Origin: a virus
UHGV virus genome: UHGV-2195224
DNA length: 57,074 bases
Direction: 5' to 3' (one strand)
The notes below the pieces were generated by a model. That model did not search any database, had not been told where the DNA came from, and worked only from the letters and a program-made list of their open reading frames with translations. Positions 41,488 through 45,650 of this stretch are shown piece after piece. Both the position numbers and the translations under genes were made by a program. Every line of letters begins with the position of its first letter. Within the stretch, counting starts at the first letter, position 1.

Positions 41488-41877
41488 TCACTTTAGCCGT
41501 TCACGGGCCGTCTTCGCCTTGTGGCACGGCCAGCACAGACTCTGCAGATTGCTGTCGGCATCTGTGCCGCCATGCGCTTTAGGAATGATGTGGTCAACGG
41601 TTTTCGCCTCACGTACCACACCAGCACGCAGACATAACTGACACAGGCCTTTGTCACGTTGCAGCACACGCACGCGAATAACATCCCACTTAGAACCATA
41701 ACCGCGCTGATGACGGGATTGTCCTGGCTTGTATTGCTTCCAGCCCTCGCTTTTGTGGCTTTCGCAATAGCCTGACGGATCAGTAGTGGTATCGCGGCAG
41801 CCGCGAACGCGGCAGGCTTTTGGGGTTCGTGGTGGCATGTAAAATATCCATAATGAGAGAGTACTTGTCTCTCTCAT
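41488..41877 (-). CDS. HNH endonuclease (terminase-associated type)
   Basis: 129-aa ORF with CxxC...HHIIP-like DHIIPKAHGG...N...CWPCH motif; directly upstream of terminase genes. Confidence 0.8.
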   Translation of the reverse strand: MRETSTLSLWIFYMPPRTPKACRVRGCRDTTTDPSGYCESHKSEGWKQYKPGQSRHQRGYGSKWDVIRVRVLQRDKGLCQLCLRAGVVREAKTVDHIIPKAHGGTDADSNLQSLCWPCHKAKTARERLK

Positions 41878-41884
41878 ATAAAAA

Positions 41885-42373
41885 TCAATCTATGAACACT
41901 ACAATTCTAGAATATATTTTTTCTATTTTTGATAAGTAGCACTTTTTATTTCCACCAGTCAGAATATATTGACTATAATCAGTCCTGAGTTGTCTCCATT
42001 CATCATGTATACTTTTATCTTTAATCCCCCCTTCACATAAAACCCATGCTCTCACTGCATTCTGGTATGCTGATTCAAGGTTTTCTTTCATGAAATATAG
42101 TTGTGCTTCATCATCAACTCGGTGAACAACAGCATTATACTGCTGTTTAACTCTTGTTTTAGCTATTCTATATTGTGTGGAATCCCAATTATCGGGCATT
42201 GCCTCAAAGGCATCCTCCAGCTCAAGTAAAGCTCTTTTAAACTCTAACTTTACTTTAAATTGCTCTTGTCTATTCCATGTGTTTAACGCCTTGCGTGCAT
42301 AACACAACGCCCCCAAAGACGCGATAGCCGAACCACAAGCCCCAATAGCAGACCACATATTCCAATCAATCAT
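41885..42373 (-). CDS. uncharacterized membrane-anchored protein (single N-terminal TM helix), AT-rich cargo
   Basis: 162-aa ORF with SD ggagg; MIDWNMWSAIGACGSAIASLGALCYARK...; between spanins and HNH/terminase. Confidence 0.5.
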   Translation of the reverse strand: MIDWNMWSAIGACGSAIASLGALCYARKALNTWNRQEQFKVKLEFKRALLELEDAFEAMPDNWDSTQYRIAKTRVKQQYNAVVHRVDDEAQLYFMKENLESAYQNAVRAWVLCEGGIKDKSIHDEWRQLRTDYSQYILTGGNKKCYLSKIEKIYSRIVVFID

Positions 42374-42435
42374 AATACCTCCAGTTAAAAGAGCAATATT
42401 AACATGGAATCATCTCTATGAAATTACATGCCCTT

Positions 42436-42684
42436 TTACTTGTTAGCGTCGATATTTTTTATTGTCGCTTTATCAAGATTACACTGTTCCAACGCTGACA
42501 TCAGACTCACATTCAACTCCAGACTGTCACCATAGGTCAGAGTATCGGGTATGTGCGGTACTGGTGTTTCCAAAGTCAGAGTAGCTGGAAGCGGAATTGG
42601 AGGTACTGTTACGTAAACTGTCCGCGTACTTCCGCAACCGGTCAGCAGCGGCAGCAGGCACAGGACGTGAAGCACAATCATCAT
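42436..42684 (-). CDS. o-spanin lipoprotein (Rz1-like), embedded in the Rz frame
   Basis: +1-frame ORF inside Rz with lipobox MMIVLHVLCLLPLLTGCGS and Pro-rich mature part. Confidence 0.6.
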   Translation of the reverse strand: MMIVLHVLCLLPLLTGCGSTRTVYVTVPPIPLPATLTLETPVPHIPDTLTYGDSLELNVSLMSALEQCNLDKATIKNIDANK

Positions 42685-42961
42685 CCGCAACAGCCATTTT
42701 GATATCTTCCTGGGTTCTCTGTGACTCCAGTGCGATCTGCTGTTTTGCATGCTGGTTAGCCTCCAGTACTGTATTGACAATTTGCAGTGATTGCAGGACG
42801 TTATTGGTAATGGCAGTTGCCAATTTGGCATTTTGTACAGCTTCATCAGCACGTTTCTTTTCGTACTGATATTTGCTGTAGTAGTGGTTGGCTGACCAGA
42901 TGAAAGAACCAATGACAGTAACGAAGAAAGCAGAGATAACCAGCTTATAGCTCAACTTCAT
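42527..42961 (-). CDS. i-spanin (Rz-like)
   Basis: 144-aa ORF with N-terminal TM helix and coiled-coil periplasmic domain; follows endolysin. Confidence 0.7.
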   Translation of the reverse strand: MKLSYKLVISAFFVTVIGSFIWSANHYYSKYQYEKKRADEAVQNAKLATAITNNVLQSLQIVNTVLEANQHAKQQIALESQRTQEDIKMAVADDDCASRPVPAAAADRLRKYADSLRNSTSNSASSYSDFGNTSTAHTRYSDLW

Positions 42962-43421
42962 TTACCACCCCACCAGCCTCTTTAAACCGGGAAATCAGGT
43001 CACCGATTTTATGTTCATACTGACCGTAACCTGCACCAGGTAACGACGCCCAGATATTGCTGCAACGATCAATAGCCTGACGGATATCACCGCGATCAAT
43101 CATCGGTAAAGCGCCACGCTCTTTAATCTGCTGCAATGCCACTGCGTCCTGGCTTTTGGGGGAGAAGTTTTTCAAACCAAGCTGTTTACGGTAAGCATCC
43201 CACCAGCGTGAAAGAAGCTGATAACGTCCGGCGGCTGTTGATTTGAGTTTGGGGTTTAGCGTGACAAGTTTGCGAGGGTGATCGGAGTAATCAGTAAATA
43301 GCTCTCCGCCTACAATGACGTCATAACCATGATTTCTGGTTTTCTGCCGTCCGTTATCCGTTCCTTCTGACCATGCCACCATATCGAGGAAAGCTTTACG
43401 CTGGGAATTTAGTGCCTGCAT
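42945..43421 (-). CDS. R: endolysin (lambda R-like lytic transglycosylase)
   Basis: 158-aa ORF ...QRKAFLDMVAWSEGTDNGRQKTRNHGYDVIVGGELFTDYSDHPRKLVTLNPKLKSTAAGRYQLLSRWWDAYRKQLGL... Confidence 0.9.
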   Translation of the reverse strand: MQALNSQRKAFLDMVAWSEGTDNGRQKTRNHGYDVIVGGELFTDYSDHPRKLVTLNPKLKSTAAGRYQLLSRWWDAYRKQLGLKNFSPKSQDAVALQQIKERGALPMIDRGDIRQAIDRCSNIWASLPGAGYGQYEHKIGDLISRFKEAGGVVNEVEL

Positions 43422-43424
43422 AAA

Positions 43425-43751
43425 TTACTCCTTCGAGCTACCAAATTTGTTACCGATTACTCGCATTGCAGCCCCACGAATTGCATCGACACCAATCAGC
43501 CCAACACCGCCACCAATGGCAACAGAAAGAGATTTAGGCCATCCGACATACTCAAGAGCGGATGCAAAAGTCAGCGTCAGAGCACCACAGAGCAAAATCT
43601 CGAGCGTTTTTCGCTTCCACCCACCACCACCGCCAAAATAGGCAATACGCAATCCAGCCATAACAATCGACATAATCACTGCGCCCAGTGGTGTGTCTCC
43701 ACGCCACCAGCTCTGGACCAACTCCAGCCAGGTATTTGGGTTATGAGGCAT
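43425..43751 (-). CDS. holin
   Basis: 108-aa ORF with multiple TM segments, first gene after the tR-prime-like element and immediately upstream of the endolysin. Confidence 0.7.
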   Translation of the reverse strand: MPHNPNTWLELVQSWWRGDTPLGAVIMSIVMAGLRIAYFGGGGGWKRKTLEILLCGALTLTFASALEYVGWPKSLSVAIGGGVGLIGVDAIRGAAMRVIGNKFGSSKE

Positions 43752-44038: not shown

Positions 44039-45067
44039 ATGGCTACACTGGACGCATTCAGTAGAGTAATAACTCATCATACTATTACGATCGATACACA
44101 ATACCGTACACAGAAAATTGATGATAGCATCAGATCGAACTGTGTTTGCCCAGTACCAACAATGCGTGAACTTGCTTCTAAAATAGTACATTGTAAAGCA
44201 ATGATGCACAGTTATGAAAAAGGAGACTTAGTTTTAACTTTACAAGATGTAATATTCTTATCAAACAGAGCCGATAAAAAACCCAGCCATCTTGGTCTTT
44301 TAATTAATGCTGTAGATAAAAATGGAAGCACTACTGTATTAAAAAACATTAATACAGATGTTCGCACCGAAATATCACCAAAACATGAGGAAGGTGAAGG
44401 TTACGAAGTTTCTTCTCATATGATTATTTCTCTAGACGGAAATATGCGAACGTATGACATGAGTTTTATGCCAATACCAGGAGTTTCCACAGCAAAAATA
44501 AATGGTTTCCTGAATAAAGTTCTCTTTAACGTAGCCAAAGATAATGAAGATATCTTTTCATGTAACACTTTAACAAATGAAGTATCAAGTTTAACAAAGA
44601 AAAAAATAAAAGTATTATACAAGCCAGTCTTTGATATATCTGGAAAGTTAGATGAAGATTTGTTCAATAAAATAAATAAAGAAGGACTTTCTGATGTCGT
44701 TTTGGTAAAGAATGAATACAGAACTATTAATGCGCCAGATGTTAACGCGGCTATTATTCCTAAAGAAAGTACTTTACGCTTAGTACCAAACCATGGCCCC
44801 AACAATGTCCTTGGATGGATAAAATCTGTCTCAAACTTCTTTAAAGAAGATAAAAATGGAGGTTATGACTTAATAAAAATAAAATTCAAAGAGCCAGAGA
44901 CAGGATTCACAAGACAAGTTGACCTTCAAACTTCAAATGTAAGGCTGGATGGGCTGGAAAAAACATTTATCAAAAAGAGTGTAATAAATGGTTTTTCTTC
45001 GCGCTTAAAGGATTCTTATGATAGTATTAACATGGAGTTTGTGAATAAGATTATCGAGGTCATGTGA
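44039..45067 (+). CDS. uncharacterized soluble protein (342 aa), first gene of an AT-rich antisense cargo operon between Q and the holin
   Basis: ORF MATLDAFSRVITHHTITIDTQYRTQKIDDSIRSN...; no recognised motif; weak SD. Confidence 0.55.
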   Translation: MATLDAFSRVITHHTITIDTQYRTQKIDDSIRSNCVCPVPTMRELASKIVHCKAMMHSYEKGDLVLTLQDVIFLSNRADKKPSHLGLLINAVDKNGSTTVLKNINTDVRTEISPKHEEGEGYEVSSHMIISLDGNMRTYDMSFMPIPGVSTAKINGFLNKVLFNVAKDNEDIFSCNTLTNEVSSLTKKKIKVLYKPVFDISGKLDEDLFNKINKEGLSDVVLVKNEYRTINAPDVNAAIIPKESTLRLVPNHGPNNVLGWIKSVSNFFKEDKNGGYDLIKIKFKEPETGFTRQVDLQTSNVRLDGLEKTFIKKSVINGFSSRLKDSYDSINMEFVNKIIEVM

Positions 45068-45074
45068 GGCTAAT

Positions 45075-45650
45075 ATGATTAGTATATTTTCACATTTATT
45101 TAGACCGTTTGGTTACCTTTTCATTAAGGGAATTAGTGGTAAGTGCGCATACGATTTTTATGCACCTGCCGGGCTTGCTGTGATTTCTTTTTTTTACTTT
45201 TATTTATTTAAAATACCTACATCAGACCTACTAAAAGATGGCGGCTTTATTAAGTCTATATCTGGATTTGTATCAAATCTGCCAGGTTTTTATATAGCAG
45301 CTCTTGCAGCAATAGCCACTTTCAACAGAGAACAAATTGACTACCCTCTGATAGGAACTAATGGCACTCCTTTTATTAAAATTACACGAACAAAAGAAAA
45401 TGGTAGAATTGTTGACACTCAAGAGAAACTTACCAGAAGATTATTTCTGTGCATGTTATTTTCATTTTTAACTGCCCTCAGCATATGCATAGTGATTTTC
45501 AACGCTTTTATCACACCACTAATAAACATACTGAATAATGATATAGCAAACTGGTGCTATATCATTATCTTTTTATTCCTTACATGGCAAATGCTTGTTT
45601 CAACATTTTTTGGACTATACTATCTTGGTGATAGGATTCACATTAATTAA
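45075..45650 (+). CDS. uncharacterized integral membrane protein (191 aa, about four TM helices), second gene of the cargo operon
   Basis: Starts 8 nt after the upstream stop with SD gagg; hydrophobic runs AGLAVISFFYFYLF, LPGFYIAALAAIATF, LFLCMLFSFLTALSICIVIFNAFI, WCYIIIFLFLTWQMLVSTFFGLYYL. Confidence 0.6.
   Translation: MISIFSHLFRPFGYLFIKGISGKCAYDFYAPAGLAVISFFYFYLFKIPTSDLLKDGGFIKSISGFVSNLPGFYIAALAAIATFNREQIDYPLIGTNGTPFIKITRTKENGRIVDTQEKLTRRLFLCMLFSFLTALSICIVIFNAFITPLINILNNDIANWCYIIIFLFLTWQMLVSTFFGLYYLGDRIHIN

What the first reader, a model, noticed from the sequence alone, without database searches (positions are those of the whole stretch)
41885..42373. Membrane-anchored AT-rich gene between the spanins and HNH/terminase
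Seen: a 162-aa ORF with strong SD, one N-terminal TM helix and a soluble helical domain, co-directional with late genes but compositionally distinct. Established: the post-lysis slot commonly holds morons (lambda bor; cor and other exclusion genes elsewhere). Inference: possible superinfection-exclusion or envelope-modifying protein.
Basis: partly seen in the sequence, partly recalled or inferred. Interest (0 to 1): 0.45.

Follow-up and report, generated by a model that had tools for sequence, protein, structure and literature searches.

The report
Membrane-anchored prophage cargo gene, function unknown
This is a real but uncharacterised accessory ("moron") gene that a lambda-like prophage carries between its lysis and DNA-packaging genes. 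It encodes a small inner-membrane protein whose helical domain faces the cytoplasm; it may exclude other phages, but nothing here shows what it does.

Summary
The 162-aa ORF at 41885-42373 (- strand) has a GGAGG Shine-Dalgarno (SD), GC 0.37 against 0.54-0.60 next door, one weakly hydrophobic N-terminal helix and a predicted helical bundle. It is under purifying selection (dN/dS 0.35).

It is optional cargo. The spanin|HNH flanks occur in 1220 of 5426 complete E. coli genomes, the ORF in 9, and the slot can be empty or hold other genes. The family is small (132 clusters at 50% identity; phrog_6169) and matches no Pfam, NCBIfam, PADLOC or PDB entry. Every context examined lies between a lysis cassette and a terminase.

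Charge bias gives N-out/C-in topology in 66 of 66 members.

Across the family the gene looks like its own transcription unit:
- a -10-like box at a fixed distance (75% of leaders vs 4% of controls);
- a hairpin pairing the SD with an anti-SD placed between the -10 box and the expected start site;
- terminator-like hairpins downstream.

These signals are weak in the window copy.

Best guess: a lysogen-expressed exclusion or abortive-infection protein at the inner membrane (about 0.35). Rivals are a lysis accessory, counter-defence or host-fitness role. It is an ordinary kind of element with an unknown family.

The parts
41885..42373 (-). 162-aa ORF (phrog_6169 family): N-terminal membrane helix (about aa 6-26), conserved juxtamembrane motif ALNTWNRQEQFKVKLEF (aa 29-45), cytoplasmic helical bundle (aa about 30-156)
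41839..42435 (-). Whole AT-rich cargo insert between the Rz1 stop codon and the HNH start codon; replaced by about 60 nt in an empty-site prophage
42378..42382 (-). Shine-Dalgarno GGAGG, 4 nt upstream of the ATG
42396..42404 (-). Extended -10-like TGTTAATAT (TAATAT 4/6 plus TG). A weak -35-like ATTTCA lies at 42419-42424 with a 17-nt spacer. This is only a candidate own promoter: the consensus scan tool did not call it.
   Evidence: against:
42399..42409 (-). Possible anti-SD arm (UUCCA.GUUAA) that pairs with UUAAC-UGGAG of the SD region in read-through RNA. It lies upstream of the expected start site of the candidate promoter. The fold is weak: -8.7 kcal/mol, z -1.24.
41853..41877 (-). Perfect 9-bp hairpin AUGAGAGAG-N7-CUCUCUCAU just after the stop codon (-13.7 kcal/mol, z -3.7). 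The T-run is not adjacent, so it may be a 3' stabiliser or a weak terminator.
   Evidence: not called by the terminator scan
42436..42961 (-). Upstream neighbours: Rz-like i-spanin (42527-42961) with embedded Rz1/LysC o-spanin (42436-42597)
41488..41838 (-). Downstream neighbour: HNH endonuclease of the HK97-type packaging module, followed by the P27-family TerS and TerL

Best explanation
The ORF is a horizontally acquired moron sitting in the variable slot between the lysis cassette and the packaging genes of a lambdoid, HK97-type-packaging prophage. It encodes a bitopic inner-membrane protein. Only a few residues face the periplasm. A Gly/Ala/Ser-rich transmembrane helix with small-xxx-small spacing follows, then a highly conserved basic juxtamembrane helix, then a cytoplasmic helical bundle.

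Shown by computation:
- The gene is real.
- It is optional.
- It is position-specific.
- It has N-out/C-in topology.
- Its family usually has a promoter-like -10 box, an SD-sequestering hairpin and a terminator-like hairpin of its own.

Inferred: the protein is made at a low level from its own promoter in the lysogen. On the Q-antiterminated late transcript, the anti-SD arm lies between the -10 box and the expected start site, so it is present only in read-through RNA. There it damps translation. This is the logic IS10 uses to protect itself from outside transcription (recalled from memory, not checked here).

Most speculative step: the conserved TM/juxtamembrane module is an anchor or effector, and the fast-changing, recombinationally swapped C-terminal bundle is a specificity domain. 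Together they would exclude or abort infection by other phages at the cytoplasmic face of the inner membrane, either by blocking DNA entry or by triggered membrane damage.
For: Optional cargo:
- Flanks occur in 1220 of 5426 E. coli genomes, the ORF in 9.
- Empty and alternative occupants of the slot exist.
- GC is 0.37.

Real gene: dN/dS 0.35.

Topology: there are more K+R on the C-terminal flank of the TM helix in 66 of 66 members, mean 3.95 vs 0.53.

Position: all contexts examined lie between lysis and terminase genes, across different holin, endolysin and terminase types. PHROG scans of the three nearest flanking ORFs on each side, for one locus per 85%-identity family cluster, agree.

Own transcription unit, at family level:
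- A -10 hexamer matching at least 5 of 6 positions at -38..-25 in 75% of 44 distinct leaders vs 4% of 489 control leaders.
- Promoter score of at least 8 in 66% vs 6%.
- SD paired to an upstream arm with MFE <= -7 kcal/mol in 67% vs 31% (Fisher p = 3e-6).
- Shuffle z-score -1.61 vs -0.24, despite lower GC in the family leaders.
- The anti-SD core lies 0 to +9 nt after the -10 box in 18 of 22 leaders, with A at +7 in 13 of 22.
- A terminator-like hairpin lies within 90 nt of the stop in 20 of 43 loci vs 82 of 800 controls.
- Bona fide terminators precede the cassette in several loci.

Window copy: predicted SD accessibility is 0.20 in read-through RNA and 0.81 in RNA starting at the candidate start site.

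Modularity:
- dS is 0.22 for codons 1-72 and 1.09 for codons 73-162, window vs L007.
- The N-terminal module is fused to an unrelated C-terminal domain in P0047 and the L200 group.
- Many profile hits cover only the N-terminal module.
Against: There is no functional evidence of any kind. There is no PADLOC, Pfam, NCBIfam or PDB relative, and fold searches return only generic four-helix bundles.

In the window copy itself the regulatory signals are weak:
- The -10 box matches 4 of 6 positions plus TG, and the -35 box 3 of 6.
- The consensus scan calls no promoter or terminator on the - strand there.
- The leader hairpin has z -1.24, with 24 of 200 shuffles folding as well.
- The gene has a strong SD and lies in the late operon, so late expression is not excluded.

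The family leaders are not phylogenetically independent. Truncating any RNA frees its SD, so the read-through versus own-transcript comparison is partly trivial. Neighbouring cargo in relatives includes counter-defence genes (Acb2/Tad1-like, DNA-modification genes), so the slot does not by itself point to defence.
Confidence: 0.35

Rival explanations
1. Late-expressed lysis accessory. The protein would be made from the late transcript together with holin, endolysin and spanins. Through its small-residue-rich TM helix it would modulate holin triggering or membrane integrity, acting as an antiholin-like or timing factor.
For: It is immediately adjacent to and co-directional with the lysis cassette in every context. 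It has a strong SD in the window copy. The TM helix is Gly/Ala/Ser-rich with small-xxx-small spacing, as in holin TM domains (the comparison with holins is from memory). The promoter evidence is weak in the window copy.
Against: It is present in only 9 of the 1220 E. coli genomes that carry the same lysis/HNH flanks. PHROG does not class the family as lysis. Family leaders carry promoter-like boxes, and hairpins that would reduce translation from the late transcript. The N-out/C-in topology with a cytoplasmic domain is unlike T4 RI (RI topology from memory). The same slot holds clearly non-lysis cargo.
Confidence: 0.17
2. Counter-defence or infection-supporting accessory protein. A membrane-tethered factor would neutralise a membrane-associated host defence or otherwise help the phage during infection, like other cargo of this region.
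For: In relatives the same post-lysis region holds Acb2/Tad1-hairpin proteins (E 4e-18), methyltransferases, DAM-like/GNAT, ParB_N and TAGT (DpdA-like) genes. The C-terminal domain diverges fast, and dN/dS is about 1 or higher among close alleles, though counts are small.
Against: No similarity to any known anti-defence family was found. A hairpin that damps translation on the late transcript would be counter-productive for a lytic-cycle function.
Confidence: 0.15
3. Lysogenic-conversion gene unrelated to phages. It would provide a host-fitness, stress or virulence function of an inner-membrane protein expressed from the prophage.
For: It has moron architecture and AT-rich composition. It is widespread in Salmonella, Shigella, E. 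coli and Citrobacter isolates.
Against: There is no signal peptide or lipobox, and the domain is cytoplasmic, so a Bor-like surface role is unlikely. The family is confined to phage contexts in every locus examined. No domain suggests a metabolic or regulatory activity.
Confidence: 0.18
4. Decaying or functionless remnant that is merely tolerated in a permissive slot.
For: It is rare. Truncated copies exist, such as the 148-aa L015 copy in Shigella. dN/dS is near 1 among the closest alleles, based on very few substitutions.
Against: dN/dS is 0.35 overall and 0.19 in the N-terminal module at larger divergence. The full-length family is conserved across Enterobacterales down to 25-30% identity, with invariant residues. 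The AlphaFold2 model is confident.
Confidence: 0.05

Closest known systems
Lambdoid-phage morons (Hendrix-type: a gene with its own promoter and terminator inserted between conserved genes; e.g. lambda bor in the post-lysis region)
   Same: It is an optional AT-rich insert between conserved late genes. It occupies the same post-lysis slot. Promoter-like and terminator-like signals flank the gene in the family.
   Different: It is co-directional with the late operon, whereas bor is on the opposite strand (from memory). The protein is not a lipoprotein, and there is no Lambda_Bor Pfam hit. The domain is cytoplasmic.
Inner-membrane superinfection-exclusion proteins (P22 SieA, HK97 gp15, T4 Imm)
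   Same: It is a small single-gene prophage product anchored in the inner membrane. It may be lysogen-expressed.
   Different: No sequence-profile relation to any annotated exclusion family in Pfam or PHROGs was found. The genomic position differs. The exclusion phenotype is untested. It has one TM helix with a roughly 135-aa cytoplasmic bundle; the architectures of the named proteins are recalled from memory and were not compared here.
IS10/IS50 'protection from outside transcription' (fold-back inhibition of the transposase ribosome-binding site in read-through transcripts)
   Same: The anti-SD arm lies at or upstream of the gene's own expected start site. Only transcripts coming from upstream can therefore sequester the SD.
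   Different: This is inferred from sequence only. No start site has been mapped. The signal is weak in the window copy. The IS10 mechanism is cited from memory.
Pfam DUF4760 (the name UniRef gives to some members of the 90% cluster)
   Same: UniRef labels P0001 and P0007 'DUF4760 domain-containing protein'. 'DUF4760' E. coli proteins of 332-339 aa are listed as predicted defence genes in the DefensePredictor supplement (PMC13092281).
   Different: hmmscan against the current Pfam-A gives no DUF4760 hit for the ORF, its close homologues or 66 family members. No relation to those longer proteins was shown.

Membership tests
Moron (autonomous transcription unit inserted in a phage operon) | Present or absent between otherwise conserved flanking genes | tested here: met
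   Flanks occur in 1220 genomes and the ORF in 9. An empty site and an alternative occupant were found. The insert boundaries are mapped.
Moron (autonomous transcription unit inserted in a phage operon) | Own promoter upstream | tested here: inconclusive
   Family level: a -10 box in 75% of leaders vs 4% of controls, and a promoter score of at least 8 in 66% vs 6%. Window copy: only TGTTAATAT plus a 3/6 -35 box, and the consensus scan calls nothing. No start-site data.
Moron (autonomous transcription unit inserted in a phage operon) | Own terminator downstream | tested here: inconclusive
   Family: 20 of 43 loci vs 82 of 800 controls. Window: a stable hairpin (z -3.7) without an adjacent T-run, not called.
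Moron (autonomous transcription unit inserted in a phage operon) | Deviant base composition | tested here: met
   GC 0.372 and GC3 0.307, against 0.54-0.60 in the packaging genes.
Superinfection-exclusion / anti-phage defence protein | Reduces infection by other phages when expressed | not testable with these tools
   Needs plaque, adsorption and DNA-entry assays.
Superinfection-exclusion / anti-phage defence protein | Sequence membership in a known exclusion or defence family | tested here: not met
   PADLOC gives 0 hits at E <= 1. Pfam and PHROGs give only phrog_6169, of unknown function. NCBIfam gives none.
   There is no lipobox. Positive-inside bias places the C-terminal domain in the cytoplasm in 66 of 66 members. 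This is a prediction, not an experiment.
Phage lysis proteins (holin, antiholin, spanin, releasin) | Profile membership in a lysis family | tested here: not met
   No lysis PHROG or Pfam hit for the ORF, whereas the neighbouring Rz, holin and endolysin hit strongly.
Phage lysis proteins (holin, antiholin, spanin, releasin) | Needed for normal lysis timing | not testable with these tools
   Needs deletion and induction kinetics. Its rarity among prophages with the same lysis cassette argues against a core role.
Pfam DUF4760 | Score above the gathering threshold of PF15956 (accession recalled from memory) | tested here: not met
   No hit at E <= 10 for 4 close homologues. None at E <= 0.01 for 66 family members.

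The most novel reading that the evidence does not exclude
The ORF belongs to a modular family of single-gene, inner-membrane abortive-infection or exclusion proteins. A conserved TM plus juxtamembrane 'effector' module would be fused to recombinationally swappable cytoplasmic sensor domains. Such genes would be kept silent on the phage's own late transcript by an anti-SD placed between the -10 box and the start site. In many enterobacterial phages they would travel as cassettes headed by a roughly 40-bp portable promoter/operator element, which also heads Acb2/Tad1-like and other arms-race cargo.
Probability: 0.2. Interest if true: 0.65.

Novelty: new member of a known kind. Interest (0 to 1): 0.38.

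Why it matters
Prophage cargo slots are a main reservoir of undiscovered defence and counter-defence genes. This analysis defines a small, phage-restricted, structurally simple family with a strict genomic address. It corrects the expected topology, which redirects the useful assays away from outer-membrane receptors and towards inner-membrane or cytoplasmic steps. If the insulation design holds up (own promoter with an anti-SD in the discriminator region), it would explain how a potentially self-harmful lysogen gene can sit inside the late operon. The conserved 40-nt element found in relatives may mark exchangeable cargo cassettes and could be used to mine more of them.

Tried and rejected
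**Sequence and profile searches**
- Pfam, NCBIfam, PADLOC and PDB-sequence searches found nothing.
- Rfam searches of the leader and gene region found nothing.

**Fold searches**
- BFVD gave no hit at E <= 0.001. The best was an uncharacterised Mycobacterium phage Redi protein at E 0.02.
- The afdb50 library was unavailable.

**Ideas tested and dropped**
- A relation between the ORF family and the two proteins of the second AT-rich island (PDC-M53A/B): hhalign probability <= 0.2%.
- The window leader as a degenerate copy of the 40-nt element. It looked similar by eye, but an nhmmer profile and mismatch searches find nothing there.
- sigma-54 and CRP readings of that element did not fit the consensus spacing (own inspection).

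**Literature**
- Searches for DUF4760, the accession numbers, phrog_6169 and the element sequence found nothing relevant.
- The Tai paper (PMC11364771) was read and found unrelated.

**Other**
- The first attempt to scan genome contigs with the 66-sequence alignment failed because it lacked a conserved stretch.

Full report
**1. What is there**

The - strand of 41885-42373 carries a 162-aa ORF with an ATG start. A GGAGG lies 4 nt upstream of the ATG.

Upstream on the same strand are:
- a lambda-family holin (43425-43751);
- a GH24 endolysin (42945-43421);
- an Rz-like i-spanin (42527-42961) with the embedded Rz1/LysC o-spanin (42436-42597).

Downstream are an HNH endonuclease (41488-41838), a P27-family small terminase and the large terminase.

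GC is 0.372 (GC3 0.307) for the ORF. It is 0.56-0.60 for HNH/TerS, 0.54 for TerL and 0.47-0.51 for the lysis genes.

**2. It is a real gene and optional cargo**

Against a 68%-identical homologue (L007), dN/dS is 0.35. It is 0.19 in codons 1-72 and 0.34 in codons 73-162.

A 1.6-kb query spanning the flanks matches 1220 of 5426 complete E. coli genomes. Only 9 of them cover the ORF. The ORF alone is found in 9 genomes: six at 96-97% identity and three at 78%.

The same slot takes other forms:
- In strain 2018-06-4CC it holds two unrelated opposite-strand genes.

Alignment fixes the insert at 41839-42435.

**3. The family**

The ORF matches phrog_6169 (unknown function) at 2e-67. Nothing matches in Pfam, NCBIfam or PADLOC.

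The word-indexed protein search found only three close clusters, from Salmonella, Shigella, E. coli and Citrobacter. tblastn against GenBank phages found one 28%-identical protein, in Salmonella phage 118970_sal3, also sitting directly after the spanin.

A profile of both subfamilies, searched against 1.84 billion representatives, gave 132 proteins at E <= 0.001. They are mostly 137-196 aa long.

UniRef calls a few members 'DUF4760 domain-containing'. The current Pfam-A does not hit the ORF, its homologues or 66 family members. No solved structure is related by sequence.

**4. Structure and topology**

The hydrophobic segment is MWSAIGACGSAIASLGALC. It is weak (KD 1.47) and 58% Gly/Ala/Ser, with small-xxx-small spacing. 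The family mean KD is 1.96.

In 66 of 66 family members the C-terminal flank of the helix has more Lys+Arg than the N-terminal flank, with means of 3.95 and 0.53. By the positive-inside rule the protein is N-out/C-in, so the bundle is cytoplasmic. This is a prediction, but a uniform one. It argues against receptor blocking at the outer membrane or a Bor-like role.

The best-conserved part of the family is the TM helix plus the juxtamembrane motif (A)L-x-T-W-x-x-Q-E-x-x-K-V-K-x-x-F. The C-terminal half varies.

**5. Modularity**

Between the window and L007, synonymous divergence is 0.22 in codons 1-72 and 1.09 in codons 73-162. That points to a recombination joint inside the gene.

Many profile hits cover only the N-terminal module. 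P0047 and a group of eight ORFs represented by the 196-aa L200 protein join the same N-terminal module to an unrelated C-terminal domain with no Pfam hit.

One Enterobacter prophage carries two paralogues 2 kb apart.

**6. Genomic address**

Every context I looked at puts the gene, co-directional, between a lysis cassette and a terminase. This holds although the holins, endolysins (GH24, GH19, GH108), spanins and terminases (P27/HK97-type, lambda GpA-type, Terminase_2) differ.

I took one locus for each of 37 family clusters defined at 85% identity (one was skipped in the script) and scanned the three nearest flanking ORFs on each side against PHROGs. Upstream ORFs are dominated by endolysins, Rz-like spanins and holins. 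Downstream ORFs are dominated by HNH and terminase subunits.

The same region in relatives also holds:
- Acb2/Tad1-hairpin proteins;
- DUF2560;
- Trypsin_2;
- methyltransferases;
- DAM-like/GNAT, ParB_N and TAGT genes.

The address is therefore an accessory or arms-race region, not evidence for a lysis role as such.

**7. Regulatory anatomy of the family**

I compared the 44 distinct leaders that remained after five loci with uncertain start codons were dropped and identical leaders merged. Controls were the leaders of other ORFs in the same loci.

- A -10-like hexamer matching at least 5 of 6 positions starts at -38..-25 in 75% of family leaders and 4% of 489 controls.
- A combined -35/-10/TG score of at least 8 occurs in 66% vs 6%.
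- Directly after the -10 box comes a pyrimidine-rich arm that pairs with the SD. SD pairing to an upstream arm with MFE <= -7 kcal/mol is seen in 67% of family leaders and 31% of SD-bearing controls (Fisher p = 3e-6).
- Shuffle z-scores are -1.61 vs -0.24, although the family leaders are less GC-rich.
- In 18 of 22 leaders that show both features, the anti-SD core lies 0 to +9 nt after the -10 box. An A sits at +7 in 13 of 22.

A transcript starting at the usual distance would therefore lack the anti-SD arm, while read-through RNA would contain it.

Arm sequences differ in a compensatory way: CACUUCACC/GGUGAGGUG, AUCCUCAU/AUGAGGAU, CUCACU/AGUGAG. The L005 leader folds at -18.4 kcal/mol with z -3.3.

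Terminator-like hairpins with T-runs follow the stop codon in 20 of 43 loci vs 82 of 800 controls. Clear terminators precede the cassette in several loci.

The family therefore has classical moron architecture, plus what looks like insulation from outside transcription. That is the principle I recall for IS10; I did not check the source.

Caveats:
- The leaders are related to one another.
- No start site is known.
- Shortening any RNA tends to free its SD.

**8. The window copy in particular**

Its leader has only:
- an extended -10-like TGTTAATAT (42396-42404);
- a 3/6 -35-like ATTTCA (42419-42424);
- a possible anti-SD arm at 42399-42409, upstream of the expected start site.

The 48-nt leader folds at -8.7 kcal/mol with z -1.24, and 24 of 200 shuffles fold as well. 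Predicted SD accessibility is 0.20 in read-through RNA and 0.81 in the short RNA. The consensus scan calls no promoter or terminator on this strand.

The 3' hairpin AUGAGAGAG-N7-CUCUCUCAU (41853-41877) is significant, at -13.7 kcal/mol with z -3.7, but it lacks an adjacent T-run.

For this copy, late expression from the Q-dependent transcript cannot be excluded.

**9. Interpretation**

*Secure:* this is an optional, horizontally moving moron of a phage-restricted family, and it encodes a bitopic inner-membrane protein.

*Predicted, but consistently so:* the helical domain is cytoplasmic.

*Likely at family level:* independent low-level expression, and damped translation on the late transcript. 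This fits a lysogen function that is useless or harmful during the phage's own lytic growth.

*Speculative:* an exclusion or abortive-infection role at the inner membrane, with the conserved N-terminal module as anchor or effector and the swappable bundle as specificity domain. I put this at about 0.35.

*Rivals:*
- A lysis accessory (0.17).
- Counter-defence (0.15).
- A non-phage host-fitness role (0.18).
- A functionless remnant (0.05).

No literature on the family was found. The DefensePredictor supplement lists 332-339-aa 'DUF4760' E. coli proteins as predicted defence genes (PMC13092281), but I could not show that they are related to this ORF.

**10. Verdict**

The finding is real, and the 'moron' reading is right. 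The specific functional suggestions need redirecting from the envelope surface to the inner membrane and cytoplasm. It is an ordinary kind of element (prophage cargo) with an uncharacterised protein family and a tidy but unproven regulatory design. Interest is moderate.

Noticed in passing
window 44039-45650 (+ strand): A second AT-rich island (GC about 0.32) lies between the Q-like antiterminator region and the holin, on the opposite strand to the late genes. Its two ORFs, of 342 and 191 aa, match the PADLOC candidate defence system PDC-M53 (M53A 2e-31, M53B 1.7e-54) and PHROGs of unknown function. They are unrelated to the target ORF by hhalign. The same Q|holin slot holds other cargo in related prophages: a nucleoid-associated protein plus a hypothetical protein in FT130.
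   Followed up: partly
related loci L005, L009, L011, L017, L079 and L150-L269; phage phi80 44298-44337 (L270:3501-3540): A nearly invariant element of about 40 nt, GGCATTACAGCA-GGCATTCACTGAGTGCCTG-TGATAATG, contains the palindrome CAGGCA-N9-TGCCTG and an extended -10-like TGTGATAAT. It usually starts right after a stop codon in the post-lysis region. It is followed by very diverse cargo: 49 clusters among 95 ORFs, including this family, HNH, BamE-like lipoproteins, DUF2513 and DUF551. Acb2/Tad1-like and DUF2560 genes often lie just upstream. It is unannotated in phi80, has no Rfam family, and no paper held in the library prints the sequence. It may be a portable promoter/operator or a recombination linker for cargo cassettes. 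It is absent from the window.
   Followed up: partly
L016 5944-6465 and 8106-8660 (Enterobacter sp. kpr-6 prophage; also L033/L104): Two diverged paralogues of the family (173 and 184 aa) sit about 2 kb apart in one prophage's post-lysis region.
   Followed up: no
P0047; L200 (196 aa) and seven related ORFs downstream of the 40-nt element: These chimeric proteins share the family's N-terminal segment and TM helix but carry an unrelated C-terminal domain with no Pfam hit. The N-terminal membrane module therefore appears to be reused.
   Followed up: partly
L014 and L015 (Shigella flexneri SFBU0723, CP182557.1): One Shigella chromosome carries two copies of the ORF (93% and 91% identity to the window protein) in two prophages. 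One copy is truncated to 148 aa.
   Followed up: no
window 41839-41877: The longest ORF for the HNH gene starts at an ATG at 41877, inside the 3' hairpin of the cargo insert. RefSeq annotations of relatives, and the empty-site alignment, support the start at 41838 instead. The 13 extra codons belong to the insert.
   Followed up: yes
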